A stretch of 64,000 bases of DNA from the human T2T-CHM13v2.0 reference genome, Homo sapiens: NCBI RefSeq assembly GCF_009914755.1, contig NC_060930.1. One strand, 5' to 3'. The position numbers and the translations under genes were made by a program. The notes under the pieces were generated by a model. It saw only the letters and a program-made list of their open reading frames with translations, did not search any database and was not told the origin of the DNA. Shown piece after piece: positions 563 through 59,850 of the stretch (position 1 is the first letter of the stretch; each line of letters starts with the position of its first letter).

Positions 563-983
563 TGTCAGGCCTCTGAGCCAAGCTAAGCCATCATATCCCC
601 TGTGACCTGCATGTACACATCCAGATGGCCAGTTCCCACCTTAACTGATGACATTCCACCACAAAAGAAGTGAAAGTGGCCGGTCCCTGCCTTAACTGAT
701 GACATTACCTTGTGAAATTCCTTCTCCTGGCTCATCCTAGCTCAAAAGCTCCCCCACTGAGCACCTTGTGACCCCCCCACCCCTGCCCGCCAGAGAATAA
801 CCCCCCTTTGACTGTAATTTTCCTTTACCTACCCAAATCTTATAAAACGGCCGCACCCCATCTCCCTTCACTGACTCTCTTTTCAGACTCAGCCCGCCTG
901 CACCCAGGTGAAATAAACAGCCTTGTTGCTCACTCAAAGCCTGTTTGGTGGTCTCTTCACACAGACATGAGTGAAATGTGAAA
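563..983 (+). mobile_element. 5' LTR7 of provirus A
   Basis: tgtcaggcctctgagcc...; two gccttaactgatgacatt-type repeats; TATA-like TATAAAA at 841; AATAAA at 912; ACAAAAGA at 661-668. Confidence 0.95.
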
Positions 984-985
984 TT

Positions 986-1003
986 TGGTGCCGTGACTCG
1001 GAT
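986..1003 (+). promoter_or_regulatory. Primer-binding site, tRNA-His
   Basis: TGGTGCCGTGACTCGGAT, the 18-nt complement of the tRNA-His 3' end, directly after the 5' LTR. Confidence 0.93.
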
Positions 1004-1126
1004 CGGGGGACCTCCCTTGGGAGATCAATCTTCTGTCCTCCTACTCTTTGCTCTGTGACAAAGATCCACCTGCAACCTCTGGTCCTCAGACTAACCAGCC
1101 CAAGGAACACCTCACCAATTTTAAAT

Positions 1127-1135
1127 CGGGTAAGC
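1127..1135 (+). promoter_or_regulatory. HERV-H major splice donor (provirus A)
   Basis: CGG|GTAAGC about 145 nt after the 5' LTR. Confidence 0.75.
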
Positions 1136-1799
1136 AGCCTCTTTCTACTCTCTTCTCCAACCTCTCTCACTATCCTTCAACCTCTTTCTCCTTTCAATCT
1201 TGGCGCCACACTTCAATCTCTCCCTTCTCTTAATTTCAGTTCCTTTCCTTTTCTGGTAGAGACAAAGGAGACGCATTTTATCCATGAACCCAAAACTCCG
1301 GAGCCGGTCACGGACTCGGGAAAACAGTCTTCCCTTGGTGTTTAATCACGCGGGGACAACTGCCTGATTATTCACCCACGTTTCAGAGGTGTGTGACCAC
1401 GTGGGAACGCCTGTCTTGGTCCTTCACCCTTAGCAGCAAGCACCGCTTTTCTGGGGGGCAAGCACCTCCAACCCCTTCCCTCCATGTCTCTACCCCTTCT
1501 CCACTTTCCTGGGGGGCAAGCACCCCCCCCACCCCTTCTCTCCATGTCTCTACCCTCTCTTTTCTCTGGACTTAGCTCCTTCACTATGGACAACCTTCCA
1601 CCCTCCATTCCTCCCTCTTCTCCCTTAGCCTGTGTTCTCAAAGACCTCTTCAACTCACACCTGACCTAAAATCTAAATGCCTTATTTTCTTCTGCACTGC
1701 CACTTGACCCCAATACAAACTGGACAGTGGTTCCAAATAGCCAGAAAACAGCACTTTCGACTTTTCCACCCTACAAGACCTAAAAAATTCTTGTCCTAA

Positions 1800-4700
1800 A
1801 ATGGGCAAACGGTCTGAGGTGCCTGACGTCCAGGCATTCTTTTACACATCGGTCCCTCCCTAGTCTCTGTTCCCAATGCAGCTTGTCCCAAACTTCCTTC
1901 TTTCCCTCCCGCCTGTCCCCTCAGTCCCAACCCCAAGCATCACTGAGTCTTTCCTCTTTCCAATCTTCCTTTTCTACAGACCCAATGACCTCTCCCCTCC
2001 TCCCCAGGCTGCTCATCGCCAGGCTGAGCTAGGTCTCAATTCTTCCTCAGCCTCCACTCCCGCACCCTATAATCCTTTTATCACCTCCCCTCCTCACACC
2101 CGGTCCGGCTTACAGTTGCATTCTGTGACTAGCCCTCCCCCACCTGCCCAGCAATTTCCTCTTAAAAAGGTGGCTGGAGCTAAAAGCATAGTCAAGGTTA
2201 ATGCTCCTTTTTCTTTATCCCAAATCAGTCAGCATTTACACTCTTTTTCATCAAATATGAAAAACCCAGCCCAGTTCATGGCTTGTTTGGCAGCAACCTT
2301 GAGATGCTTTACAGCCCTATACCCTAAAATGTCAAAAGGCCATCTTATTCTCAATATACATTTTATTACCCAATCTGCTCCCGACATTAAATAAGACTCC
2401 AAAAATTAAATTCCAGCCCTCAAACCCCACAACAGGACTTAATTAACCTCACCTTCAAGGTGTACAATGATAGAGTAGAGGCAGCCAAGTAGCAACGTAT
2501 TTCTGAGTTGCAATTCCTTGCCTCCACTGTGAGACAAACCCCAGCCACATCTCCAGCACACAAGAACTCCAAACGCCTGAACTGCAGCTGCCAGGGATTC
2601 CTCCAGAACCTCCTCCCCCAGGACCTTGCCACAAGTGCCGGAAATCCGGCCACTGGGCCAACAAATGCCCATAGCCCAGGATTCCTCCTAAGCAGTGTGC
2701 CATCTGTGCAGGACCCCACTGGAAATCGGACTCACCCGGCAGCCACTCCCAGAGCCCCTGGAACTCTGGCCCAAGGCTCTCTGACTGACTCCTTCCCAGA
2801 TCTTCTTGGCTTAGCGGCTGAAGACTGACACTGCCCGATCACCTCAAAAGGCTCCTGGACCATCACAGATGCTTTGGGTAACTCTCACAGTGGAGGGTGA
2901 GTCTGTCCCCTTCTTAATCAAAATGAAAGCCACCCACTCCACATTACCTTCTTTTCAAGGGCCTGTTTCCCTTGCCTCCATAACTGTTGTGGGTATTGAT
3001 GGCCAGGCTTCTAAACCTCTTAAAACTCCCCAGCTCTGGTGCCAAATTAGACAATACTCTTTTAAGCACTCCTTTTAATTATCCCCACCTGCCCAGTTCC
3101 CTATTAGGCCGAGACACTTTAACTAAATTATCTGCTTCCCTGACTATTCCTGGATTACAGCTACATCTCATTGCTGCCCTTCTTCCCAATCCAAAGCCTC
3201 CTTTGCGTGCTCCTCTTGTATTCCCCCCACTTAACCCACAAGAATAAGATACCTCTACTCCCTCCTTGGCAACCGATCATGCACCCCTTACCATCTCATT
3301 AAAACCTAATCACCCTTACCCCAATCAATGCCAATATCCCATCCCACAGCATGCTTTGAAAGGATTAAAGCCTGTTATCTCTCGCCTGCTACAGCATGGC
3401 TTTTAAAGCCTATAAACTCTCCTTACAATTCCCCCGTTTTACCTGTCCTAAAACCAGACAAGCCTTACAAGTTAGTTCAGGATCTATGCCTTATCAACCA
3501 AATTGTTTTGCCTATCCACCCTGTGGTTCCAAACCCATATACTCTCCTATCCTCAATACCTCCCTCCACAATCCATTATTCTGTTCTGGATCTCAAACAT
3601 GCTTTCTTTACTATTCCTTTCCACCCTTCATCCCAGCCTCTCTGCTTTCCCTTAGACTGACCCTGACACCCATCAGGCTCAGCGAATTACCTGGGCTGTA
3701 CTGCCACAAGGCTTCACAGACAGACCCCGTGACTTCAGTCTAGTCAGAATTCTTACACAAGAGCCAGGACTGCACCCTGTAGCCTTTCTGTCCAAACAAC
3801 TTGACCTTACTGTTTTAGCCTAGCCCTCATGTCTGCGTGCGGCGGCTGCCGCTGCTTAAATACTTTTAGAGACCCTCAAAATCACAAACTATGCTCAACT
3901 CACTCTCTACAGTTCTCATAACTTCCAAAATCTATTTTCTTTCTCACACCGGACGCATATACTTTCTGCCCCCTCCACTACCTCTCAGCAAGCCAAACTC
4001 ATTGCCTTAACTCGGGCCCTCACTCTTACAAAGGGGCTACACATCAATATTTATACTGACTCTAAATATGCCTTCCATATCCTGCACCACCAAGCTGTTT
4101 TATAGGTGAAAGAAATTTCCTCACTATGCAAGGGTCCTCCATCATTAATGCCTCTTTAATAAAAATGCTTCTCAAAGCCACTTTACTTCCAAAGGAAGCT
4201 GGAGTCATTCACTGCAAAGGCCATCAAAAGGCATCAGATCCCATCACTCAGGACAACGCTTATCCTGATAAGGTAGCTAAAAAAGCAGCCATCAAAAGGG
4301 CTCAGATCCCATCGCTCAGGACAATGCTTATGCTGATAAGGTAATTAAAAAAGCAGCTAGCATTCCAACTTCTATCCCTCGTGCAGATTTTCTCCTTCTC
4401 ATCTGGCCACTCTCACCCACTCCCTCACTGAAACTTCCATCTATCAATCTCTTCCCACACAAGGCAAATGGTTTTTGGACCAAAGAAAATATCCCCTTCC
4501 AGCCTCACAGGCCCATTCTATTCTGTCATCATTTCATAACCTCTTCCATGTAGGTTACAAGCCACTAGTCCGCCTTTTAGAACCTCTCATTTCCTTTCCA
4601 TCGTGGAAATCTATCCTCAAGGAAATAACTTCTCAGTGTTCCATCTGCTATTCTACTACTCCTCAGGGATTGTTGAGGCCTCCTCCCTTTCCTACACATC

Positions 4701-5200
4701 AAGCTCAGGGATTTGCCCCTGCCCAGGACTGGCAAATTGACTTTACTCACATGCCCCGAGTCAGAAAACTAAAATAACTCTTGGTCTAGGTAGACACTTT
4801 CACTGGATGGGTAGAGGCCTTTCCCACAGGGTCTGAGAAGGCCACTGTGGTCATTTCTTCCCTTCTGTGAGACATAATTCCTCGGTTTGGCCTTCCCACA
4901 TCTATACAGTCCGATAGTGGACTGGTCTTTATTAGCCAAATCACCCAAGCAGTTTTTCAGGCTCTTGGTATTCAGTGAAACATTTATATACCTTACAATC
5001 CTCAATCTTCAGGAATGGTAGAACGGACTAATGGTCTTTTAAAAACACACCTCACCAAGCTCAGCCACCAACTTAAAAAGGACTGGACAATACTTTTACC
5101 ACTTGCCCTTCTCAGCATTCAGGCGGGTCTGTCCTCGGAATGCTACAGGGTACAGCCCATTTGAGCTCCTGCATGGACACTCCTTTTTATTAGGCCCCAG
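1800..5200 (+). pseudogene. Degenerate HERV-H gag-pro-pol of provirus A
   Basis: Fragment ORFs carry motifs for protease (LLGRD), RT (NSPVLPVLKP..LVQDL, LDLKHAFF), RNase H (VIHCKGHQK) and integrase (HxxxH..CSIC, WQIDFTHMP). Many stops and frameshifts. Confidence 0.9.
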
Positions 5201-5656
5201 TCTCATTCCAGACACCAGCCCAACTTGAACTGCACCCCAAAAACTTGGATAGAGCCTAAAAGCTCACCAACCAAGCAAGTAATTATGCTCAACCCCCTTG
5301 AGCACTCTCTAATTGGATGTCCTGGGTCCTCCCAATTTTCAGTCCTTTAATACCTGTTTTTCTCCTTCTCTTATTCCATTTAGTTTTTCAATTCATACAA
5401 AACCGTATCCAGGCCATCACCAATAATTCTATATGACAAATGTTGCTTCTAACAACCCCACAATATCACCCCTTACCACAGGATCTTCCTTCAGCTTAAT
5501 CTCTCCCACTCTAGGTTCCCATGCCGCCCCAATCCCTCTCGAAGCAGCCCTGTGAAACATCGCTCATTATCTTTCCATACCACCCCCCAAAAAATTTTCG
5601 TCGCCCCAACACTTTACCACTATGTTATTTTTCTTATTAATATAAGAAGACAGGAA

Positions 5657-6077
5657 TGTCAGACCTCTGAGCCCAAGCTAAGCCATCATATCCCCTGTGA
5701 CCTGCATGTACACATCCAGATAGCCAGTTCCTGCCTTAACTGATGACATTCCACCACAAAAGAAGTGAAAATGTCCGGTCCCTGCCTTAAATGATGACAT
5801 TACCTTGTGAAATTCCTTCTCCTGGCTCATCCTGGCTCAAAAGCTCCCCCACTGAGCACCTCGTGACCCCTGCCCCTGCCCGCCAGAGAATAACCCCCCT
5901 TTGACTGTAATTTTCCTTTACCTACCCGAATCTTATAAAATGGCCGCACCCCTATCTCCCTTCGCTGACTCTCTTTTCAGACTCAGCCCGCCTGCACCCA
6001 GGTGAAATAAACAGCCTTGTTGCTCACACAAAGCATGTTTGGTGGTCTCTTCACATGGACATGAGTAAAATGTGAAA
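5657..6077 (+). mobile_element. 3' LTR7 of provirus A (preceded by PPT ataagaagacaggaa)
   Basis: About 95% identical to 563-983 by manual alignment. Confidence 0.95.
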
Positions 6078-6363
6078 GATAGTATTTGGAGTTGTGGCCT
6101 TTGGAGGCAATTAGGTCCTGAGGGCAGAGCCCTCACAAACAGAATTAGTGCCCTTATAAAAGAGGCCTAAGAGAGTTCACCCCTTCCATGATGTGAGAAC
6201 ACAGCAAGAAGCCTATGAGCTACAGAGTAGGTTCTCACAGATACCAAAACTGCTGGCAACTTGATCTGGAATTTCCCAGCCTCCAGAATTGTGAGAAATA
6301 ATGTCTGTTTATAAGCTATCCAGTTTATGGTATTTTGTTATATCAGCCAAAAGAGACTAAGAG
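6078..6363 (+). mobile_element. MLT1A-type MaLR LTR, 3' part
   Basis: gtatttggagttgtggcctttgg...cccttataaaagagg...cccagcctccagaattgtgagaaataa...gactaaga continues the 495-562 fragment. Confidence 0.85.
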
Positions 6364-11120: not shown

Positions 11121-13636
11121 TGTATTAGGTTGTTCCGGCATTGCTATAAAGAAATACCTGAGACTGGGTCATTTATAAAGAAAAGAAGTTCATTTGGCTC
11201 ACACTTCTGCAGTCTGTACAGAAGCATGGTGCTGGCATCTACTCAGCTTCTGGTAAGGCTTCAGGGTGTTTACAATCATGGTGGAAGTTGAAGGGAAGGG
11301 GTAGCAGGCAGGTCACATGGATGGATGGCTAGAAGAGGAGCAAGAGAGAGAGTGGGGGGCGGGGGAGGTGCCACACACTTAAAAAATCATATCTCACAAG
11401 ATCTCATTCACTATTGTGAGGAAAGTACCAAGGGAATTGGCTAAACCATTCTTCAAAAATCCATCTCTATTAAACAATAATCTTCCAAGAGGCCCCACGT
11501 CGAACACTGGGGATTACAATTTGACATGAGATTATATGGGACACATATCCAAACTATATAATTTTATCTCTGGCCCCTCAAATCTCATTTTCTTCTCTCA
11601 CTGCAAAATACAATCATCCCCGACCAATAGTCTCCCAAAGCCTTAACTCATTCTAGCATTAACTCCAAAGTCCAAAGTCCACAGTCTCATCTGGAAATAA
11701 ATTCCTTCCACCTATGAGCCTGTAAAATCAAAAGAAGTTATTTACTTCCAAGACACAATGAGGGTATAGGCATTGGGTAAACATTACTGTTCCAAAAGGG
11801 AGAAATCAGCCAAAGGAAAGGAGCTAAGGCCCCATGTAAGTTGAAAACCCCACAGGGCAGTCATTAAATCTTAAGGTTCCAAAATAATCTTTCACTCTGT
11901 GTCCCATAACCTGGGAACATTGATATGAGGGGTGGGGTCCCAAGGAATTGGGCAGCTCTACCGTTGTGGTTTTGCAGGGTTCAGCCCTGGAGGCTGCTCT
12001 CACACATTGTTGAGTGCCTGCAGCTTTTCTAGGTGCAGGGTGGAAGCTGCCAGTGGATCTATCATTTTGGGGTCTGGAGGACAGTGGCCTCCTTCCCACA
12101 GCTCCACTAGGCAATGCCCCAGTGAGGAATCTGTGTGGGTGGGTCCTCCAAACACACATTTCCCCTCTGCACTGCCCTAATAGAGGTTCTCTGTTTGGGC
12201 TCTGCCACTGCAACAAGCTTCTGCCTGGGCACCCAGAATTTCCCATACATTCTCTGAAATCTAGGTGGAGGCTGCCAAGCCTCTTTAACTCTTGCACTCT
12301 GCATGGCTGCAGGCTTAACATCACATGAAAGGCACCAAGGCTTATGGCTTGTGCCCTCTGGAGTGGGAGCCTGATCTGCACCTGTGGCCTTTTAAGCCAC
12401 AGCTGGACCCAGAGCAGCCAAAATATAGGCAGCACTCTTCTGAGGCTGGCCAGGGCAGTGGGGCCCTGAGCCTGACCCAGGAAACCCTTCTTAACTCCTA
12501 GACATCTGGGCCTATGATGGGAAAGACTGTTGCAAGGGTCTCTGAAATGCCTTCAAGACCTTTTTCCCATTTTCTTGGCTATCAGCACGTAGCTTCTTTT
12601 TAGTTACGCAAATTTCTCTAGCAAGTGGTTTCTCCACAGCCTGCTTGAATTCCTCTCTCAAAAAAGCTGTTTCTTTCTTTGTCACATGGCTAGGCTGCAA
12701 ATTTTCCAAATTTTTATACTCTGCATCCCCTTTAAAGATAAGTTCCACTTTAAGTCATTTTTTTGTTCCCACATCTTTGAATAGGTTGGTAGAGGCAGCC
12801 AGGCTACATCTTGAATGTTTTACTGCTTAGATATTTCTTCCAGCAGATACACTACGTCATTACTCTCAGGTCCGTACTTCTACAGATCCCTAGGGCATGA
12901 AAAGAATGCAGCCAAGATCTTTGCTAAGGCATAACATGCATCACCTTTGATCCAGTCTCCAATACATTCCTCATTTCCATCTGAGACCTCATCAGCTTGG
13001 ACTTCACTGTTCATATCAGTATCAGCATTTTGGTCTCAACCATTTAACCAGTCACTAAGAAGTTTCAATCTTTCCTTCCTCTTCCTATCTTCTTCTGAGC
13101 AATCCAAACTCTTTGAACTTCTGCCCATTACCCAGTTCCCAAGTTGCTTCCACATTTTCTGGTATCCTTATAGCAATACCCCACTACTGGTGCCAATTTT
13201 CTGTATTAAGCTCTTGCATTGCTATAAAGCTCTTGCATTGCTATAAAGAAATACTTAAGACTGGGTAATTTATAAACAAAATAGGTTTAATAGGCTCACA
13301 GTTATACAGGTTGTACAGGAATCATGATGCTGGTGTCTTCTTGGATTCTGGGAGGGCTTCAGGAAGCTTGCAATAATGGTAGAAGGAGGAGAGAGGAGCA
13401 GGCATGTCACATGGCCAGAGAAGAGGGAGAGAGTGGAGCAGGGAGGTGCCACACACTTAAACAACCAGATCTCATGAGAACTCACTATTGTGAGGACAGC
13501 ACCAAGGGGACAGTGCCAAACCACTCACTAAAAAATGCATCCCTGTGATCCAGTCACCTCCTGCTAGGCCCATGTCCAACACTGGGGATTATAATTCATC
13601 GTGAGATTAGAGGGAACACATATCCAAACTATATCA
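11121..13636 (-). mobile_element. Full-length MST (MSTA/MSTB) MaLR: LTR-internal-LTR, sense to TRDN
   Basis: LTRs at 11121-11561 and 13202-13636 (tgtatta...ccaaactatatca); 1.6-kb internal region with a decayed MaLR ORF (11824..12435); 5-bp TSD CACCT (11116-11120 / 13637-13641). Confidence 0.9.
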
Positions 13637-14641: not shown

Positions 14642-14851
14642 CTGAAAAGTTTTTGTAATCCACTAAATCAAACATAACGATGGCAACAGCTGACCACGTG
14701 ATTATCAGGGCAATGACCAGAAGCCAGGCTGCAGGGGAGCTGAACGTCGTCACTATGTCTTCTGTGACTGTCCTCTTCAGCACTTTTCCGGGGGATTTGG
14801 GCACAGATCCATTTTTGCTGTCTATCACAGTTGTGGTTGTAGATGCATTTC
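14642..14851 (-). CDS. TRDN: Triadin coding exon 2 (approx. residues 8-78: cytoplasmic N-terminus, transmembrane helix, start of luminal domain)
   Basis: Minus-strand translation (G)NASTTTTVIDSKNGSVPKSPGKVLKRTVTEDIVTTFSSPAAWLLVIALIITWSAVAIVMFDLVDYKNFS(A) matches triadin. Acceptor ...tttcctttctgaatgtttgattag|G at 14852/14851; donor CAG|gtaagt at 14642/14641. 210 nt, phase 1-1. Confidence 0.97.
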
Positions 14852-20907: not shown

Positions 20908-23900
20908 TCACGGGGGTTTGCTGTACAGGTTATTTCATCACCCCAGTACTAAGCTTCGTTACCCAACAATTATTTTTTTTCTGCTCCTGTCCCTCCTGCC
21001 ACCCTCCACCCTCAAGTAGGCCCCAGTGTCTGTTGTTCCCTTCTTTGCATTCATGAGTTGTCATCATTTAGTTCCCACTTATAAGTGAGAACATGCGATA
21101 TTTCATTTTCTGTTCCTGCATTAGCTTCCTAAAGATAATAGCCTGCAGCTCCATCCATGTTCCCACAAAAGACATGATCTTGTTCTTTTTATGGCTGCAT
21201 AGTATTCCATGGTGTATATGTACCACATTTTCTTTATTTAATCCGTCATTGGTGGGCATTTAGGTTGATTTCATGTCTTTGCTATTTGATAATGCTGCAA
21301 AACATTTGCGTGCATGTGTCTTTAAGGTAGAATAATTTCTATTTCTCTAAGCATAGACCCAGTATGGGATTGCTGGGTTGAATGAGTTCTGTTTTTAGTT
21401 CTTTGAGGAATCACCATACTGCTTTCCACAATAGTTGAACAAATTTATACTTCCACCAACAGTGTATAAGTGTTCCCTTTTCTTTGCGGCCTCACATCTG
21501 TTATTTTTTGACTTTTTAATGATAGCCATTCTGACTGGTGTGAGATAGTATCTCATTGTAATTTTCATTTGCATTTCTCTAAAGATCAGTGATATTGAGC
21601 TTTCTTCATGTGCTTGTTGGCTGCATGTATATCTCCTTTTGAAAAGTGTCTTTTCATGTCCTTTGCCCACTTCTTAATGGAGTTGTTTGTTGTCCTCTTG
21701 TAAATTTAAGTTATTTATAGATGCTGGATATTGGACCTTTGTCAGATACATAGTTTGCAAAATTTTCTTCCATTCTGTATGTTGTCTGTTCATTCTGGTG
21801 ATAGTTTCCTTTGCCGTGCAGAAGCTCTAAAGTTTAATTAGATCTTGTTTGTCAATTTTTACCTTTGTTGCTATTGCTTTTGGTATCTTTGTCATGAAAT
21901 CTTTGCCCATTCCTATGTCCAGGATGGTATTGCCTAGGTTGTTTTCCAGATTTTTTGTAGTTTTGGGTTTTACATTTAAGTCTTTAATCCATCTTGAGTT
22001 GATTTTTGTATAAGGTGTAAGGAAGTTGTCCAGTTTCAATCTTCTGCATATGGCTAGCCAGTTATCCCAGCATCATTTATTGAGTAGGGAGTCATGTGAC
22101 ATGAGTTTACATATAACTTCCCCATTGCTTGTTTTTGTCAGCTTTGTCGAAGATCAGAGGGTCGTAGGTATGGGGCCTTATTTTTGTGCCCTATATTCTG
22201 TTCCATTGGTCTATGTGACTGTTCTTGTATGAGTACCATGCTATTTCGCTCACTGTAGCCCTGTAGTATGGTTTGAAGTTGAGTAATGTAATGCCTCCAT
22301 CTTTTTCCTTTTTGCTTAGGATTGTCTTGGCTATTTGGGCCCTTATTTTGGTTTTATACATATTTTAAAATATTCTTCTAGTTCTGTGAAGAATGTCACT
22401 GGTAGTTTGATAGAAACAGCATTGAATCTATAAATTGCCTTGGGCAGTATGGCCATTTTAATGATATTATTTTTATCCGTGAGCATGGGATGTTTTTCTG
22501 TTTGTTTTGCCTTCTCTGTTTCCTTTGAGCAGTGTTCTGTAATTCTCATTGTAGAGATCTTTTACCTCCCTGGTTACGTGTACTCCTAGGTGGTTTTTTC
22601 GTGTGTGTGGCAATTGTGAATGTAATTGCCTTCCTGATTTGGCTGTCAGCTTGGCTGTTGTTGGTGTATAGGAATGCTACTGATTTTTGTACATTACTTT
22701 GTATTCTGACATTTTGCTGAAGTTGTTTATCAGCTTAAGGAGCTTTCAGGCCAAGACTATTGATATTTTTAAATATAGAATCATGTCATCTGCAAATAGA
22801 AATAGTTTGACTTTCTATCTTCCTATTTGGATGCCCTTTATTTCTTTCTCTTGCCTGGACAGGATTACCAATACTATGTTGAAGAAGAGTGGTAGGAGAG
22901 AGCATCATTTTCTTGTGCTGGTTTTCAAGGGAAATGCTTCCAGATTTTGCCCCATCAGTATGACGTTGGCTGTGGGTTTATCACAGATGGCTCTTATTAT
23001 TTTGAGGTATGTTCCTTCAATACCTAGTTTATTGAGAATTTTTAACATAAAGGAATGTTGAATTTTATCAGAACCTTTTTCTTCATCTATTGAGATAATC
23101 ATGTGGTTTTTATCTTTGGTTCCATTTATTTGATGAATCAAATTTATTGATTTGCATATGTTGAACCAACCTGGCATCACAGGGATGAAGACTACTTGAT
23201 AGTGATCGATTAGCTTTTTGATGTGCTGACGGATTTGGTTTGCAAGATTTTGTTGAGGATTTTTGCATCAATGTTTATCAATAACATTGGCATGCCATTT
23301 TCTTTTTTTGTTGTTGTGCCTCTGCCAAGTTTTGGTATGAGGATGATGCTGGCCTCATATAATGAGTTGGAGAGGAGTGCCTCTGATGTGGTTAGGCTCA
23401 ATGTCCCTACCCAAATCTCATCTTAAATTGTAATCCCTATAATCCCCACATGTCAAGAGAGAGACCAGGTGGAATTAATTGAATCATGGGGGCAGTTTCC
23501 CCCAGGCTGTTCTTGTGACGAGTGAGTTCTCACAAGACCTGATAGTTTTATAAGGGGCTCTGCCCCCTCCCTCACTCAGCACTTCTCCTTCTTGCTACCC
23601 TGAAAAGAAGGTGCCTTACTTTCCTTTCACCTTCCACCATGATTGTAACTTTCCTGAGGCCTCCCCAGCTATGCTGAACTGTGAGTCAATTAAACCTCTT
23701 TCCTTTATAAATTACACAGTCTCAGGCAGTTCTTTATAGCAGTATGAAAAGGAACTAATACACAATTTTAGAAGGAATGGTACCAGCTCTTCTTTGTATA
23801 TCAATTAATAATAGAATTCAGCTGTGAATCTATCTGGTCCCAGGCTTTTTTTGGTCAGTAGGGTACTTGTTACTGACCATTTCAGTCCATTTCAGAGCTC

Positions 23901-25641: not shown

Positions 25642-26034
25642 CCAATCAAAAAGAATCAAACTCTGTAAAATAAATGAATGGATTTATTCTGAGCCAAATA
25701 TAAGTGACCAAGGCCCAAGGCACATCTCAAGAGGTCCCAAGAACATATGCCAAAGGTGAATGGGTTACAGCTTGATTTTACACATTTTAGGGGGACAAAA
25801 GTTACAGGCAAAACCAATAATCAATACATGTACCCTATACATTGGTTCAGTTCAGAAGAGTGAGACAACTCGAAATGGGGGGCATTTCCACTCGAAGTGA
25901 GGGGCAGATCATAGGCAGATTCAAAGATTTTCTGATTGACAGCTGGTTGAAAAAGTTAAGTAAGAGTTAGTTTATTATCTAACAACCCAGAATCAATAGA
26001 CAGGTGTGTCTGGGTTAAGATAAGGAGTTATGGA
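25642..26034 (-). mobile_element. MER4-family LTR, 3' part (interrupted by HERV-H B)
   Basis: aagaatcaaactctgtaaaa...tttattctgagccaaatataagtgacc; continues at 31705. Confidence 0.8.
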
Positions 26035-26435
26035 TTTCATGCGCGTCCGTGTGAAGAGACCACCAAACAGGCTTTGTGTGAGCAATAAAGCTGTTTATTT
26101 CACCTGGGTGCAGGTGGGCTGAGTCCAAAAAGAGAGTCAGTGAAGGGAGATAGGGGTGGGGCCGTTTTATAGGATTTGGGTAGGTAAAGGAAAAAGGGGG
26201 GTTGTTCTCTGGCAGGCAGGAGTGGGGGGCACAGGTACTCAGTGGGGGCGCTTTTGAGCCAGGATGAGCCAGGAGAAGGAATTTCACAAAACAATGTCAT
26301 CAGTTAAGGCAGGAACAGGCCATTTTCACTTCTTTTATGGTGGAATGTTATCAGTTAAGGCAGGAACCCGCGATCTGGATGTGTACGTGCAGGTCACGGG
26401 ATATGATGGCTTAGCTTGGGCTCAGAGGCCTGACA
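26035..26435 (-). mobile_element. 3' LTR7 of provirus B
   Basis: About 97% identical to 31302-31704 by manual alignment; PPT adjacent (ttcctgtcttcttat on +). Confidence 0.95.
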
Positions 26436-27029
26436 TTCCTGTCTTCTTATATTAATAAGAAAAATAAAATGAAATAGTGGTAAAGTCTTGGGACAGCAAA
26501 AATTTTGGGGGATGGTATGGAGAGATAATGGGCGATGTTTCTCAGGGCTGCTTTGAGTGGGATTAGGGGGGGCGTGGGAACCTAGAGTGGGAGAGATTAA
26601 GCTGAAGGAAGATTTTGTGGTAAGGGGTGATATTGTGGGGTTGTTAGAAGGAATAGTTGTAATTTAGAAGTATTGGTGATGGCCTGGATAACAGTTTTGT
26701 ATGAATTGAAAAACTAAACGGAATAAGAGAAGGAGAAAAACAGGTATAAAAGGTCTAAGAATTGGGATGACTCAGGACATCTGCTTAGAGAGTGCCTAAG
26801 GAGATCAGCATAGTCCTGCCAGCAAAGATTATTTACTTCAAGAGTTAAGAGTGGCAGTTTGGGGATGGCACCAGGAGATATCAGCTGTGATGGCTTGGAG
26901 AAACTGTAAACCGGCAGTGTAAACAAGAGCAGGGCATGTATGAGTAGTTGAGAACGGTGAATAGGAGTATGACTAGACAGAAGATAGTAGGGATGACAAG
27001 TTTTTGGGGGGCACAGTCTAAGTTCTGGT

Positions 27030-30000
27030 GTCTGGAATGAGACTGGGGCCTAATAAAAAGGAGCGTCTATACAGGAGCTCAAATGGGCTGTACCTTGTAG
27101 TATTCTGAGGACAGGTCTGACTTCTGAGAAGGGAAAGTCATAAAAGTATTATCCAGTCCTTTTTAAGTTGGTGGCTGAGCTTGGTGAGGTGTGTTTTTAA
27201 AAGACCTTTAGTCTGTTCTACTTTTCCTGAAGATGGAGGACCGTAAGGGATATAAAGGTTTCACTGAATACTAGGAGCCTGAAAAACTGCTTGGCTGATT
27301 TGACTAATAAAAGCTTGTCTGTTATCAGACTGTATTGAGGTAGGAAGGCTAAACTGAGGAATTATGTCTGACAGAAGGGAAAAAATGACTGTGGTGGCCT
27401 TCTCAGACCCTGTAGGAAAGGACTCTACCTATCCAGTGAAAGTGTCTACCTAGACTAACAGGTATTTTAGTTATCTGACTCCGGGCATGTTGAGTAAAGC
27501 TAATTTGCCAGTCCTGGGTGGGGCCAAATCCTCAAGCTTGATGTGTAGGGAAGGGAGGGGGCCTGAATAATCCCTGAGGAGTGGTAGAATAGTAGATGGA
27601 ACACTGAGAAGTTATTTCCTTGAGGATAGATTTCCACGATGGAAAGGAAATGAGAGGTTCAAAGAGGCGGGATAGTGGCTTGTACTATAGCATAGCCTGC
27701 CTTTGCTGGTGTGTGGCGATTAGGCCTAGTGGAACCGCCATCAATAAATCAAGCGTGATCAGGGTGAGGAACAGGAAAGAAGGAAATATGGGGAAATGGG
27801 GTGAATGTCAGGAGGATCAGACAGATACAGTCATGGAGGTCGGGTGTGGTATCAGGAATAATGTGGGAGGCTGGATTGAAGTCCGGGTCAGGAACAATGG
27901 TAATTGTGGGACTTAACAAAGAGTGAGTACAGCTGAAGGAGCCGGGGAGCAGAAAGTATATGCGTCAGATATGAGGAAGAAAATAGATTTTGGAAGTTAT
28001 GAGAAATGTAGAGAGTAAGTTGAGCATAGTTTGTGATTTTGACGGCCTCTAAAAGTATTAGGGTGGCAGCAGCCGCTGCACGGAGACATGATGCCTAGGC
28101 TAAAACAGTAAGGTCAAGTTGTTTGCACAGAAAGGCTACAGGGTGTGGTCCTGGCTCTTGTGTAAGAATTCTGACCGCATTAACCATGCCTAGGAAGGAA
28201 AGGAGTTGTTGTTTTGTAAGGGATTGAGGTTTGGGAGATTAATCGGACACGATCAGCAGGGAAAGCACGTGTGTTTTTATGAGATTATGCCGAGATAGGT
28301 AACAGATGAGGATGAAATTTGGGCTTGACTGAAGTAATGGGGGCTGTCTGTGAAGCCTTGCGGCAGTACAGCCCAGGTAATTTGCTGAGCCTAGTGGGTG
28401 TCAGGGTCAGTCCAAGTGAAAGCCAAGAGAGGCTGGGATGAAGGGTGGAAAGGAATAGTAAAGAAAGCATGTTTGAGATCCAGAACAGAATAATGGATTG
28501 TGGAGGGAGGTATTGAGGATAGGAGAGTATATGGATTTGGAACCACGGGGTGGATAGGCAAAACAATTTGGTTGATAAGGCGCAGATCCTGAACTAACTT
28601 GTAAGGCTTGTCTGGTTTTAGGACAGGTAAAATGGGGGAATTGTAAGGAGAGTTTATAGGCTTTAAATGGCCATGCTGTAGCAGGCAAGTGATAACAGGC
28701 TTTAATCCTTTCAAAGCATGCTGTGGGATGGGATATTGGCATTGACTGGAGTAAGGGTGATTAGGTTTTAATGAGATGGTAAGGGGTGCATGATCGGTTG
28801 CCAAGGAGGGAGTAGAGGTATCTTATACTTGTGGGTTAAGGTGGGGGATACAAGAGGAGCATGCAAAGGAGGCTTTGGATTGGGAAGAAGGGCGGCAATG
28901 AGATATAGCTGTAGTCCAGGAATAGTCAGGGAAGCAGATAATTTAGTTAAAGTGTCTCGGCCTAATAGGGAACTGGGCAGGTGGGGATAATTAAAAGGAG
29001 TGCTTAAAAGAGTATTGTCTAATTTGGCACCAGAGTTGGGGACTTTTAAGAGGTTTAGAAGCCTGGCCATCAATACCCACAACAGTTATGGAGGCAAGGG
29101 AAACAGGCCCTTGAAAAGAAGGTAATGTGGAGTGAGTAGCCTTGGTATTGATTAAGATGGGGACAGACTTATCCTTCACTGTTAGAGTTACCCGAAGCTC
29201 GGCATCCATGATGGTCTAGGGGGCTTCCGAGGCGATCGGGCAGCGTCAGTCTTCAGCCGCTAAGCCAAGAAGATCTGGGAAGGAGTCTGAGAGCCTTGGG
29301 CCAGAGTTCCAGGGGCACTGGGAGTGGCTGCCGGGTGAGTTGGACAGTCCGATTTCCAGTGGGGTTCCGTACAGATGGGACGTGGCTTAGGAGGAATCCC
29401 GGGCTGCGGGCATTCCTTGGCCTGGTGGCCAGATTTCTGGCACTTGTAGCAAGCTCCTGGGGGAGGAGGTTCTGGAGGAATGCCTGGCCGCTGTGGTTCA
29501 GGCATTTGGAAGTTCTTGTGTGCTGGAGATGTGGCTGGGGTTTGTCTCACAGTGGAGGCAAGGAATTGCAACTTTTTTCTATTATTGTACACCTTGAAGG
29601 CGAGGTTGATTAAATCCTGTTGTGGGGTTTGAGGGCCGGAATTTAATTTTTGGAGTTTTATTTAATGTCGGGAGCAGATTGGGTAATAAAATGTATTTTG
29701 AGAATAAGACGGCCTTTTGACCTTTTAGGGTCTAGGGCTGTAAAGTGTCTCAGGGTTGCTGCCAAACGAGTCATGAACTGGGCTGGGTTTTTCATATTTG
29801 ATGAAAGAGTCTAAATGCTCACTGATTTGGGAGAGATCTGATAAAGAAAAAGGAGCATTAACCTTGACTATGCCTTTAGCTTCAGCCACCTTTTTAAGAG
29901 TAAATTGCTGGGCAGGTGAGGGCTAGTCACGGAATGAAACTGTAAGCCGGACCGGGTGTGAGGAGGGGAGGTGATAAAAGGATTATAGGGTGGAGGACCG

Positions 30001-30240
30001 GAGGCTGAGGAAGAATTGGGACCTAGCTCGGCCTGGCGAGGAGGGGAGAGGTCAGATGTGTCTGTAGAAAAGGAAGAGTAGAAAGACTCAGTGATGCTTG
30101 GGGTTGGGACTGAGGGGACAGGTGGGAGGGAAAGGAGGAAGATTTGGGATGAGTTGCATTGGGAACAGAGACTATAGAGGGACTGATGTGTAAAAGAATG
30201 CCTGGATGTCAGGCACCTCAGACCATTTGCCCATTTTACA
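27030..30240 (-). pseudogene. Degenerate HERV-H gag-pro-pol of provirus B
   Basis: Gag zinc knuckle [14 protein letters not shown] (ORF 29260..29592), protease LLGRD, RT PYNSPILPV..LVQDLR..LDLKHAFF (ORF 28391..28804), integrase remnants. Confidence 0.9.
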
Positions 30241-30548
30241 ACAAGAATTATTTAGATCTTGAAGGATGGAAAAATTGAAAGTGCCGTTTTCTGGCTATTT
30301 GGAACTACTGTCGAGTTTGTATTGGGGTCAAGCGGCATTGCAGAAGAAAATAAGACACTTAGATTTTAGGTTAGATGAGAGTTGAAGAGGTTTTAAGTTC
30401 TTAAGAACACAGACTAAGGGAGAAGAAGGAGGAATGGAGGGTGGAAGGTTGCCCATAGTGAAGGAGACAAACCCAGAGAAAAGAGAGAGTAGAGACATGG
30501 AGGGAAGGGGTTTGGGGGTTCTTACCCTCCAGAAAAGCGGGAAAGGGG

Positions 30549-30705
30549 TCGGGGCACAGAGATACGAGGTCAGGGCATGGAAATAAGGGATTGGGGTGCA
30601 GAGATATAAGAGGTTAGGGCACGGAAATAATGGATTGGGGTACAGCGATATAAGAGGTTGGGGCACGGAAATAAGGGATGGGGGCACAGAGATATGAGGT
30701 TGGGG
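30549..30705 (-). repeat. ~40-bp tandem repeat (about 3.5 copies) in the HERV-H B leader
   Basis: Repeating ggggcacagagatat..gaggttggggcacggaaataagggatt unit; absent from provirus A. Confidence 0.8.
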
Positions 30706-31149
30706 TACTTGCCCCTCCTCTAGAAAAGCGGGACTTGCTGCTCAGGGTGAAGGAAAAGGGGTTGGGGGTTTCTTGCCCCCCAGAAAGGTGGAAAAGGGGT
30801 AGAGACACAGAGAGAAGGGGTTGGGGTACTTGCCCCTTCCCCAGAAAAGCGGGACTTGCCACTAAGGATGAAGGACCAAGGCAGGCGTCCCTGCGTGGTC
30901 TGACACCTCTGAAACCTGGACGAATAATCAGAGAGGTGTCCCTCCAATGATTAAACACCAAGGGAAGGCTGCCTTCCCTAGTCCATGACTGGCGCCAGAG
31001 TTTTGGGTCCACGGATAAAACGTGTCTCCTTTGTCTCTACCAGAAAATGAAAGGAATTGAAATTAAGAGAAGGAAGAGATTGAAGAGTGGAAAGGAGAAA
31101 GTGGTTGAGGGACAGTGAGAGAGGTTGGAGAAGAGAGTAAGAAGAGGCT

Positions 31150-31158
31150 GCTTACCCG
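31150..31158 (-). promoter_or_regulatory. HERV-H major splice donor (provirus B)
   Basis: Minus strand CGG|GTAAGC, with GT at 31155-31154. Confidence 0.78.
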
Positions 31159-31281
31159 ATTTAAAATTGGTGAGATGTTCCTTGGGCTGGTCGGTCTGAG
31201 GACCTGAGGTCGTAAGTGGATCTTTCTCACGGAGCAAAGAACAGGAGGACAGGGGATTGATCTCCCAAGGGAGGTCCCCTG

Positions 31282-31299
31282 ATCTGAGTCGCGGCACCA
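31282..31299 (-). promoter_or_regulatory. Primer-binding site, tRNA-His (2 mismatches)
   Basis: TGGTGCCGCGACTCAGAT immediately after the 5' LTR. Confidence 0.88.
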
Positions 31300-31301
31300 A
31301 A

Positions 31302-31704
31302 TTTCATGTGCGTCCGTGTGAAGAGACCACCAACAGGCTTTGTGTGAGCAATAAAGCTGTTTATTTCACCTGGGTGCAGGTGGGCTGAGTCCAAAAAGAG
31401 AGTCAGTGAAGGGAGATAGGGGTGGAGCTGTTTTATAGGATTTGGGTAGGTAAAGGAAAAGGGGGGGTTGTTCTCTGGCAGGCAGGAGTGGGGGTCACAA
31501 GGTACTCAGTGGGGGAGCTTTTGAGCCAGGATGAGCCAGGAGAAGGAATTTCACAAGACAATGTCATCAGTTAAGGCAGGAACAGGCCATTTTCACTTCT
31601 TTTATGGTGGAATGTTATCAGTTAAGGCAGGAACCGTCGATCTGGATGTGTACGTGCAGGTCACAGGGGATATGATGGCTTAGCTTGGGCTCAGAGGCCT
31701 GACA
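31302..31704 (-). mobile_element. 5' LTR7 of provirus B (promoter pointing toward TRDN exon 2)
   Basis: TGTCAGGCC start at 31704, TATAAAA, AATAAA, CATTGT SOX-like site at 31558-31563. Confidence 0.95.
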
Positions 31705-32239
31705 ATGGAGATCAAGTTTCTTATTATGTAAGTGAAGCCTTCAGGTAGCAGGCTTCAGAGAGAATAGATGGCAAATATCTCTTATCAGACCCCAAAAGGT
31801 GCTAGACTCTCAGTTACTCTCTCCTGCATCAGGACAAGATCTGGAAAGGGAGGGAAATTCTCTACAGAATGTAGATTTTCCGCAAGAGACAGCCTAATAA
31901 GGCCATTTCAAAATATGTCAAATATATTTTGGGGTACAATATTTTTATTTCTTGTAGGGTCTGCTATCTGTCACATGATGCTATACTAGTCAAGTTGGAA
32001 TCTGGTATCTTATTGCTACAAAGAGTCTGTTTCGCAACTCTTAAAAATCTCTGTTTTAATGTTAATGCTGGCAAGTTGCACCTGAATTCCAAAGGGAAGG
32101 AGATATAAGGAGACATGTCTGACACCTCCTTCCCATCATGGCCTGAACTAGTTTTTCAGGTTTACTTTGGAGTTCCCTGGGCAGAGAGGAAGGAGCCATT
32201 CAGTAAGTTGGGGATTTAGAGTTTTATTTTTACTTTACA
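31705..32239 (-). mobile_element. MER4-family LTR (MER4D/E-like), 5' part
   Basis: Reverse complement tgtaaagtaaaaataaaactct...aaacctgaaaaactagttcaggccatgatgggaagg. Confidence 0.85.
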
Positions 32240-58429: not shown

Positions 58430-59850
58430 TTATGCAAAAATTAACTCAAAATGGATTAAAGACTTAAATGTAAGGCCTGAAACCATGAAACTACAGGAAA
58501 ATTTAGGGGAATTCCTTTAAGGCAATGGTCTGGGAAAACATTTTATGGAAAAGACCACAAAAGCACAGGAAACAAAAGCAAAAATAGACAAATGGGATTA
58601 TATCAAACTAAAAAGATTCTGCACAGCAAAGGAAACAATCAACATAGTAAAGAAATAACCAACAGAAAAGAATAAAAGATTTGCAAACTATTTGTTTTAT
58701 AAGATATTAATGTCCAGAATATACAAGAAACTCAAACAATAGCAAAAACAAATAATAAACAAATAGTGTGATTAAAAACCTGGCAAATGAACTGAATAGA
58801 CATCGCTCAAAAGATACATACAAATGGCCAACAGGTGTATGAAAAAAATACTCAACACCACGAATCATCAGTGAAATGTAAATGAACACCATAATGAGAT
58901 ATCTCACTCCAGTTAGAATGTCTATTATCAAAAAGACAAAAGATAATAAATAATGGCAAGGACATGGAGAAGGGAACTCTCACACACTGTTGGTGGGAAT
59001 GTAAATTAGTGCAGCCATTATGAAAAATAGTATGGGGCTTCCTCAAAAAACTGAAAATATAACTACCATTGATCCAGGAATCCTACTACTTGGTATATAT
59101 CCAAACGAATTGAAATCAGTATGTTGAAGAGATAACTGCACTCCCAGGTTTAGTGTGGCACTATTCATGATAACCAAGATATGTAATCAACCTAAGTATC
59201 CATCCACAGATGAATGAAGAAAGCAAATGTGGTGTATGCGTCTGTGTGTGTATATATGAATAATGGAATGTGTGTGTGTATGTGTGTGTGTGTATATATA
59301 TAATGCCCATTCACGTTTGAAAAACATGTATATACACACACACACACACACACACAATGGAATATTATTTGTCCCTAAAAAAGAATGAAATCCTGTCATT
59401 CACAGCAACGTGGATGAGCTATGTCAAGTGAGATAGGCTAGACACAAAAAGACAAATATTATTTGTTCTCACTCATATGTGGAAGCTATAAAAGTTGATC
59501 TCATAGACGTAGAGAGTAGAATAGTGGTTACTAGAGGCTAGAAAGTGTGGGGATGTGAGGATAGCCAAAGGTTGGTTAATGGATATAAAACTCCAGCTAG
59601 ATAGGAGGAATAAGTTCTACTGTCCTACAGCATTGTAAAGTGACTATAATTAACAACAATTTTTTGCATATTTTTAATAGCTAGAATAATGGATTTTGAA
59701 TATTCCCAACAAAAAGAAATGATAAATATTTGATGTGATGAACATGCTAATTACCCTGATTTGATCATTATACATTGTATGTAAGTGTGGAAATATCACA
59801 TGTAACTCATATATATGTGTCAGTTAAAAATATATAATAAAGCAAAAAAG
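58430..59850 (+). mobile_element. L1MA 3' fragment (end of ORF2 plus 3' UTR)
   Basis: aactcaaaatggattaaagacttaaatgtaag...agctagataggaggaataagttct...taattaccctgatttgatcatta. Confidence 0.9.

What the first reader, a model, noticed from the sequence alone, without database searches (positions are those of the whole stretch)
2935..3640. Apparent gene-conversion tract between the two proviruses (pro-RT)
Seen: manual alignment of A 2935-3640 with the reverse complement of B ~28425-29133 gives roughly 20 differences in ~700 bp (~97%), including 60-nt blocks with none. Sequence just outside the tract, the LTRs and the deletion patterns differ clearly more. Both copies end the protease frame identically (CQIRQYSFKHSF*) and resume LLGRD in another frame. 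Both read STIHY and IPFHP where I recall the HERV-H consensus as STTHY and IPLHP. TSDs and LTR pairs are unswapped. Inference: the two copies have already paired and exchanged sequence, by non-crossover conversion or inversion toggling.
Basis: partly seen in the sequence, partly recalled or inferred. Interest (0 to 1): 0.75.

Follow-up and report, generated by a model that had tools for sequence, protein, structure and literature searches.

The report
Gene conversion between neighbouring HERV-H proviruses
Two old, broken retrovirus copies facing opposite ways 20 kb apart around exon 2 of the heart gene TRDN share rare mutations over about 700 bases, most likely because one was copied into the other by DNA repair millions of years ago, which is a well-supported new example of a known process.

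Summary
Confirmed, and most likely a real ectopic gene-conversion tract. Proviruses A (563-6077, +) and B (26035-31704, -) are 97.3% identical over A 2935-3640 but 87-92% elsewhere. In the tract each is the other's best genome-wide hit; in the flanks neither is among the other's 40 scored hits. Two shared variants match only A and B genome-wide, and two more match one further, unrelated place each. Inversion toggling is not supported: TSDs and LTR pairs are unswapped and B has no a-only state. Other linked HERV-H pairs show similar signs, so this is an ordinary kind of event. A crossover here would invert TRDN exon 2, but no such allele was found in my searches.

The parts
563..6077 (+). Provirus A, HERV-H-like, LTRs 563-983 and 5657-6077, TSD GATAG (558-562, 6078-6082); lineage 'a' in the left flank; likely the recipient
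   Evidence: tree of 2240-2712 puts A with 15 a-copies at 100/97
26035..31704 (-). Provirus B, HERV-H-like, LTRs 31302-31704 (5') and 26035-26435 (3'), TSD ATGGA (26030-26034, 31705-31709); lineage 'b' on both flanks; likely the donor
   Evidence: b-side at 21 of 25 b/c-diagnostic columns left of the tract and 22 of 23 right of it
2935..3642 (+). Converted tract in A (maximal span; shared rare states span 3046-3621); b-lineage sequence in an a-lineage provirus; the 3' part is N-terminal reverse transcriptase
28427..29134 (-). Matching tract in B
28861..28914 (-). Patch 1 in B (A coordinates 3155-3208): identical to c-lineage copies, while A is identical to b-lineage copies
   Evidence: B 0 mismatches to L035, L040, L043, L047; A 0 mismatches to L004, L007, L010 and others; A vs B 4 of 54
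28547..28690 (-). Patch 2 in B (A coordinates 3380-3522): nearest to c-lineage copies
   Evidence: B 1-2 mismatches to L044, L031, L032, L049; A vs B 7 of 143; AU test rejects an A+B clade over both patches, p=0.0047
3094..3115 (+). Shared one-base gap near 3101 (frameshift), near-private
   Evidence: 3 places genome-wide at up to 1 mismatch (A, B, one chrX copy); that copy is 91% identical over the tract and shares none of 3046, 3209, 3528, 3621
3209..3209 (+). Shared substitution found only in A and B
   Evidence: 2 exact places genome-wide; 0 of 84 panel copies
3528..3528 (+). Shared substitution, near-private
   Evidence: A, B and one chr1 place; 0 of 84 panel copies
3621..3621 (+). Shared substitution found only in A and B (the IPFHP base)
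   Evidence: (2 places) against 538 places when any base is allowed there
14642..14851 (-). TRDN coding exon between the two inverted proviruses (exon 2, with the transmembrane segment); a bystander that an A x B crossover would invert
   Evidence: hub annotation; translation; PMC6241331 passages (exon 2 = aa 8-78, TM 48-68)

Best explanation
Proviruses A and B share rare variants only over about 700 bases of the pro-RT region, most likely because a non-crossover DNA repair event in the germ line copied B's sequence into A, and B likely received two short patches later from a third HERV-H lineage. Shown: the identity step, mutual-best-hit status confined to the tract, near-private shared variants, A's switch from lineage a to lineage b at the tract, B's c-type patches, and unswapped TSDs and LTRs. 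Inferred: a break in A was repaired on the inverted copy 25 kb away, probably by strand invasion and synthesis-dependent annealing on the same chromatid. Inferred: it sits in pro-RT because that is the most conserved shared block. Inferred from the 1-2% residual divergence and recalled ape divergences: an age of very roughly 3-14 million years.
For: Mutual best hits at 1174 bits vs next 1141 and 1138, among 40 scored of 1126 and 1125 candidates. Neither copy is among the other's 40 scored hits in the left flank or right flank. Among 595 pairs of 35 copies not picked on tract identity, the lowest tract divergence is 3.1% and the lowest tract/left-flank ratio 0.40, against 2.7% and 0.28 for A-B. 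A-B is the only one of 2850 pairs with 4 states exclusive to the pair in the tract. Genome-wide exact patterns give 2, 3, 2, 3 and 7 places. Direction: A carries 31 of 31 a-only columns in the left flank (28 of them one indel block) and 0 of 17 in the tract. A's structural relatives L077 and L081 are only about 89% identical to A in the tract. A sides with b at 11 of 12 b/c-diagnostic tract columns, and B is b-type on both flanks. Short LTR conversion tracts with multiple donors, and more conversion between linked copies, are described in PMC4921805 (passages).
Against: The whole-tract tree gives A+B only 87/95 support; the 100/99 uses patches chosen after seeing A-B identity. B's two c-type patches need one or two extra events whose donor is not identified. 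101 of 3486 panel pairs reach 2.7% divergence or less in the tract, so identity alone is not diagnostic. Some a-flank copies already carry non-a tracts (L052, L068), so A could have been mosaic before meeting B. One A-lineage state at 2737 is also in B: a possible tiny A-to-B patch or a recurrent mutation. No ape orthologues were available, so order and date are untested. Searches score only 40 candidates, and exact patterns miss carriers with a second change nearby.
Confidence: 0.65

Rival explanations
1. A already had a b-type pro-RT (born recombinant, or converted earlier by another b copy) and B was born as a b/c mosaic. A-B conversion then homogenised only three patches (2935-3154, about 3209-3379, 3523-3642), in an unknown direction.
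For: The three patches hold all the shared rare states and few differences (2 of 220, 5 of 170, 1 of 121). HERV-H copies are widely mosaic: 25 different combinations at six key sites among 74 copies. Inter-subfamily recombination is reported for LTR7 (PMC8912925 passages).
Against: It needs more events, and a b-c-b-c-b pattern within about 400 bases in a copy that is b-type at 43 of 48 diagnostic columns outside the tract. The rare-state load in the tract is 8 in both copies, while in the left flank A has 16 and B 10; this fits B's history slightly better, though weakly.
Confidence: 0.18
2. Reciprocal exchange: an even number of crossovers (inversion toggling), or symmetric heteroduplex with patchy repair, left A with B's sequence and B with patches of A's former sequence.
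For: At 3155, 3164, 3175, 3486 and 3487, A has the state of B's own lineage and B does not, which looks swapped. The inverted orientation allows crossover.
Against: B's patches match lineage c, not a: B has 0 of 17 a-only tract states, including the block at 3154-3214 that A's nearest structural relatives carry. It works only if A had first acquired a c-type tract. A pure swap would not create shared private variants. TSDs and LTRs are unswapped.
Confidence: 0.1
3. No contact between A and B: pro-RT is simply conserved and the shared marks are subfamily traits.
For: Median tract identity is 95.5% among tract-picked copies and 99 of 1176 pairs reach 97.3%. The stop (28 of 84) and STIHY (31 of 84) are lineage traits.
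Against: Four states are confined to A and B plus at most one other place genome-wide; for 3621 that is 2 of 538 places. 0 of 300 flank-picked pairs reach 97.3%.
Confidence: 0.03
4. The sharing arose in a virion: one provirus is a template-switch recombinant that took this segment from the other's RNA and then happened to integrate 20 kb away.
For: Template switching is the traditional model for ERV recombination (PMC8912925 passage). B is younger than A by LTR divergence.
Against: Integration within 20 kb of the template locus in a 3.1-Gb genome is about a 1 in 100,000 coincidence (inference). It does not explain why the older A has a b-type tract. Exclusive sharing also marks other linked pairs, which points to proximity in the chromosome.
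Confidence: 0.03

Closest known systems
Gene conversion between tandem ERV-V1/ERV-V2 env genes (PMC2567338; abstract and section 6 read)
   Same: Neighbouring proviruses homogenised over about 1.2-1.3 kb of an internal gene, with sharp breaks and discordant trees.
   Different: There the genes are intact, placenta-expressed and converted in all lineages. Here the copies are inverted, the region is broken pro-RT, and no function is implied.
Non-allelic gene conversion among human LTRs (PMC4921805; passages)
   Same: Short tracts (maximum 14-450 bp), multiple donors for one acceptor, more frequent between linked copies; resembles B's c-type patches.
   Different: That study concerns LTRs and polymorphic Y-chromosome events; this tract is internal, longer (about 580-710 bp) and autosomal.
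HERV-H-mediated NAHR (PMC4195946 passages and section 11; PMC3292815 passages)
   Same: HERV-H copies of 92-95% identity recombine ectopically without 300-500 bp of perfect identity.
   Different: Those are crossovers (deletions, duplications, translocations). The genome-wide screen took directly oriented pairs of at least 94% over at least 2 kb, so this inverted, roughly 90% pair falls outside it; 'TRDN' and '6q22' gave no hit in its 3 supplementary files.
Recombination between LTR7/HERVH subfamilies (PMC8912925; passages)
   Same: Mosaic HERV-H sequence made of blocks from different lineages.
   Different: That work covers LTR blocks that founded subfamilies; here the mosaic is locus-specific and marked by variants nearly confined to two neighbours.

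Membership tests
Ectopic (non-allelic) gene conversion tract | Local identity between paralogues well above their flanks, with sharp ends | tested here: met
   97.3% vs 87-92%; ratio 0.28, below all 595 control pairs
Ectopic (non-allelic) gene conversion tract | Paralogues are sisters in the tract and not in the flanks | tested here: met
   tract tree 87/95; left flank AU p=0.017 against an A+B clade, 36 of 86 loci used
Ectopic (non-allelic) gene conversion tract | Derived states shared by the pair and absent from unlinked paralogues | tested here: met
   the 3046 state is weaker, 7 places
Ectopic (non-allelic) gene conversion tract | Non-reciprocal, with flanking markers not exchanged | tested here: met
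   TSDs and LTR pairs unswapped; B has 0 of 17 a-only tract states
Ectopic (non-allelic) gene conversion tract | Unconverted ancestral state seen in an orthologue or another haplotype | not testable with these tools
   the genome has no relatives held (header)
Inversion toggling between inverted repeats | Reciprocal swap of the segment between two crossovers, or an inverted allele | tested here: not met
   no a-lineage segment in B's tract; an inverted allele in other haplotypes or apes could not be examined
HERV-H provirus | Two LTRs flanked by a target-site duplication | tested here: met
HERV-H provirus | Gammaretrovirus-like reverse transcriptase | tested here: met
   3400-3642 matches MMLV RT, E 1.6e-22; Pfam found nothing for the two short fragments tried
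HERV-H provirus | Family size of about 1000-1200 long copies | tested here: met
   1116-1138 candidates per search; 1225 full-length HERV-H cited in PMC4477479 (passage)
HERV-H provirus | tRNA-His primer-binding site and LTR7-type LTR by repeat library | not testable with these tools

The most novel reading that the evidence does not exclude
The pro-RT core is a recurrent exchange hub for linked HERV-H copies, and this pair still recombines in people, so that its crossover outcome, a copy-neutral inversion of about 25 kb that flips TRDN exon 2, is a hidden null allele for triadin knockout syndrome that exon-dosage and exome tests would miss.
Probability: 0.08. Interest if true: 0.65.

Novelty: new member of a known kind. 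Interest (0 to 1): 0.3.

Why it matters
The tract is direct sequence evidence that these two inverted proviruses have paired in the germ line. It has raised their local identity from about 90-92% to 97%, with identical runs up to 121 bases, on either side of TRDN exon 2, whose loss gives a null phenotype (PMC6241331 passages). That marks a specific, testable inversion risk. It also shows that internal HERV-H regions are mosaics shaped by neighbours, which distorts trees and dates built on pol. The process is known, and no function or disease allele is shown.

Tried and rejected
1) Counting the stop by alignment column gave 84 of 84. That was an artefact of frame differences; counted in frame it is 28 of 84: 13 of 19 b, 5 of 25 a, 1 of 16 c, 9 of 24 unassigned. 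2) My first set of B relatives came mostly from A's tract search and was biased; it was replaced by 10 copies picked on B's left flank only. 3) The reciprocal-swap idea was tested with A's structural relatives and lost support. 4) The chrX copy with the same one-base gap is not a sibling or donor. 5) Assembly collapse is rejected by inference: 19 differences remain and the patches have distinct lineage affinities. 6) Position 2737 looked private in 74 copies but is shared with A's relatives L077 and L081; 2926 is in 1 of 84; neither is counted as tract evidence. 7) The recalled PRDM9 13-mer has 3 exact matches in the window and none in the tract. 8) The protease label was not confirmed by Pfam or PDB for the 47-aa fragment. 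9) Pair L090/L091 was dropped because L091 misaligned. 10) Literature: 'inversion + TRDN + HERV' listed one consensus statement, seen as a listing only; 'inversion toggling/great ape/Strand-seq/TRDN' had 0 TRDN occurrences in the 10 listed of 15 papers; a search on conversion of internal regions listed 2 papers, neither on this locus by listing; PMC9675761 passages name no ERV inversion here. Supplements of the inversion catalogues were not read and may list this locus.

Full report
1. Observation. The window holds two LTR-bounded proviruses in opposite orientation: A at 563-6077 (+; TSD GATAG) and B at 26035-31704 (-; TSD ATGGA). A 2935-3640 aligns to B 29134-28429 with 19 substitutions and two one-base gaps in 705 columns (97.3%), against 87-92% in the flanks and LTRs. 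Identical runs reach 91, 121 and 109 bases. Each element's own LTRs are closer (4.5% and 2.2% divergence) than any A-B LTR pair (8.3-9.7%), so there is no net inversion. The 3' part of the tract encodes N-terminal reverse transcriptase (MMLV RT, E 1.6e-22).

2. Is the step just family-wide conservation? Partly. Among 49 copies picked as best hits to the tract, median pairwise identity is 95.5% in the tract vs 91-95% in the flanks, and 99 of 1176 pairs reach 97.3%. That panel is biased. Among copies not picked on tract identity, 0 of 300 pairs reach 97.3% (25 copies). Among 595 pairs (35 copies) the lowest tract/left-flank divergence ratio is 0.40, against 0.28 for A-B. In genome searches A and B are mutual best hits in the tract (1174 bits vs 1141 and 1138; 40 scored of 1126 and 1125 candidates), while neither is among the other's 40 scored hits left or right of it.

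3. Which shared marks are private? The in-frame stop at 3076-3078 occurs in 28 of 84 other copies, mostly lineage b (my first column-wise count of 84 of 84 was wrong). The STIHY base is in 31 of 84. These are lineage traits. By contrast, genome-wide patterns found the 3209 state in only A and B, the 3621 state in only A and B out of 538 places matching with any base there, the 3528 state in A, B and one chr1 place, the one-base gap near 3101 in A, B and one chrX copy that is otherwise unrelated, and the 3046 state in 7 places. These counts are lower bounds, since a nearby second change hides a carrier. A-B was the only one of 2850 panel pairs with four exclusive states in the tract; the next had two.

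4. Direction. I labelled three lineages a, b and c from trees and diagnostic columns. A's left flank groups with a (100/97) and carries 31 of 31 a-only columns (28 in one indel block), but its tract carries 0 of 17. Its nearest structural relatives, L077 (which shares its deletion junction near 3742) and L081, are only about 89% identical to A in the tract. At 39 tract sites where both differ from A, B sides with A at 26. B is b-type at 21 of 25 b/c-diagnostic columns left of the tract and 22 of 23 right of it, and A is b-type at 11 of 12 inside it. So b-type sequence entered A, most simply from B.

5. An unexpected wrinkle. At 3155, 3164, 3175, 3486 and 3487, A has the b state and B does not. 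In 3155-3208 B is identical to four c-lineage copies and A to at least eight b-type copies; in 3380-3522 B is 1-2 mismatches from c copies. Trees on 36 of the 86 loci then held give A+B at 100/99 in the remaining patches and reject A+B in these two (AU p=0.0047). The patches were chosen after seeing the data, and the whole-tract tree on 76 rows gives only 87/95. I first read this as a reciprocal swap, but B has none of the a-only states, so the patches are not A's likely former sequence. The simplest reading is later short conversions of B by a c-lineage copy, as with the multi-donor short tracts described for LTRs (PMC4921805, passages). Patchy homogenisation of two already mosaic copies remains possible.

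6. Age. Residual divergence is 2.7% overall (95% interval 1.7-4.1), 2.0% without the five lineage sites (1.1-3.2) and 1.0% in the three cleanest patches (0.4-2.3). Against recalled human-chimpanzee (about 1.2%) and human-orangutan (about 3%) divergences this suggests very roughly 3-14 million years. This is inference; no orthologue was seen.

7. How ordinary? In the 86-locus panel, 3 of 4 pairs under 1 Mb apart (A-B included) share at least two exclusive non-CpG states, against 12 of 3413 pairs on different chromosomes. With three further usable close pairs (a fourth was dropped for misalignment), the six pairs other than A-B split as follows: one clear (L049/L050, 726 kb), two suggestive (L004/L020, mutual best in the same tract only; L092/L093, 98.2%), and three without signal (L087/L088, L031/L089, L023/L069). 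The sample is small and partly selected. Conversion between neighbouring proviruses is in print for ERV-V env (PMC2567338, abstract and section 6), and HERV-H crossovers at 92-95% identity are documented (PMC4195946, PMC3292815; passages). My ten searches found no paper on this locus by listing; most subscription papers and the inversion catalogues' supplements were not seen.

8. Consequence. Both copies are broken in this region, so no protein-level effect is expected (inference). The TRDN exon between them (14642-14851) translates to the N-terminal and transmembrane segment, exon 2 of PMC6241331, whose homozygous deletion gives a null phenotype (passages; breakpoints not given there). A crossover, unlike the non-crossover seen, would invert about 25 kb including this exon. 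Inverted repeats would not give that deletion by simple NAHR (established knowledge; compare PMC9675761 passages). No inverted allele is known to me or was found.

9. Verdict. Direct A-B exchange: about 0.93 (best explanation plus rivals 1 and 2). B-to-A conversion with later third-lineage patches in B: 0.65. New member of a known kind; interest 0.3.

Noticed in passing
L049 and L050 (G000:C6:95769458 and 95042979, 726 kb apart, same strand): Six non-CpG states exclusive to this pair, five of them in the gag-side flank, and mutual best identity there (97.8%): a second likely conversion. A chr6 HERVH pair 723,861 bp apart is listed with one duplication in a supplement of PMC4195946; it may be the same pair, coordinates not lifted over.
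   Followed up: partly
L004 and L020 (G000:C1:79328127 and 79535559, 207 kb apart): Mutual best hits (97.3%) over the same pro-RT tract and sisters at 100/94 in the tract tree, but not in the left flank: the same pattern as A-B, with only 1-2 exclusive states.
   Followed up: partly
L092 and L093 (G000:C8:115368200 and 115408850, 41 kb apart): 98.2% over the tract, each the other's second-best match of 92, with two exclusive states in the left flank; suggestive only.
   Followed up: partly
window 965-1129: The annotated exon of lncRNA LOC105377982 starts in A's 5' LTR and ends exactly before GTAAG at 1130, the element's own splice donor: a typical HERV-H-derived lncRNA exon (typicality recalled).
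   Followed up: no
window 2922-2934 and 3643-3654: Clusters of A-B differences, several of them rare states in A, sit right at both ends of the tract; possibly error-prone repair at the tract ends, or chance.
   Followed up: no
window 2730-2752 (site 2737): B carries a state otherwise seen only in A and A's relatives L077 and L081: a possible tiny A-to-B patch, or a recurrent mutation.
   Followed up: partly
L035 (G000:C6:122808410, about 2 Mb from B): A c-lineage copy on the same chromosome, identical to B over 3155-3208: a candidate donor, but three unlinked copies match equally well.
   Followed up: partly
window 4220-4357; 30543-30875: A 68-base tandem duplication in A's pol region, and about 86-base repeats in B's leader region.
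   Followed up: no
window 21222-22013 vs 58430-59233; 11138-11559 vs 13235-13634: A further old inverted repeat pair (70%) and a direct pair (75%) in the TRDN introns.
   Followed up: no
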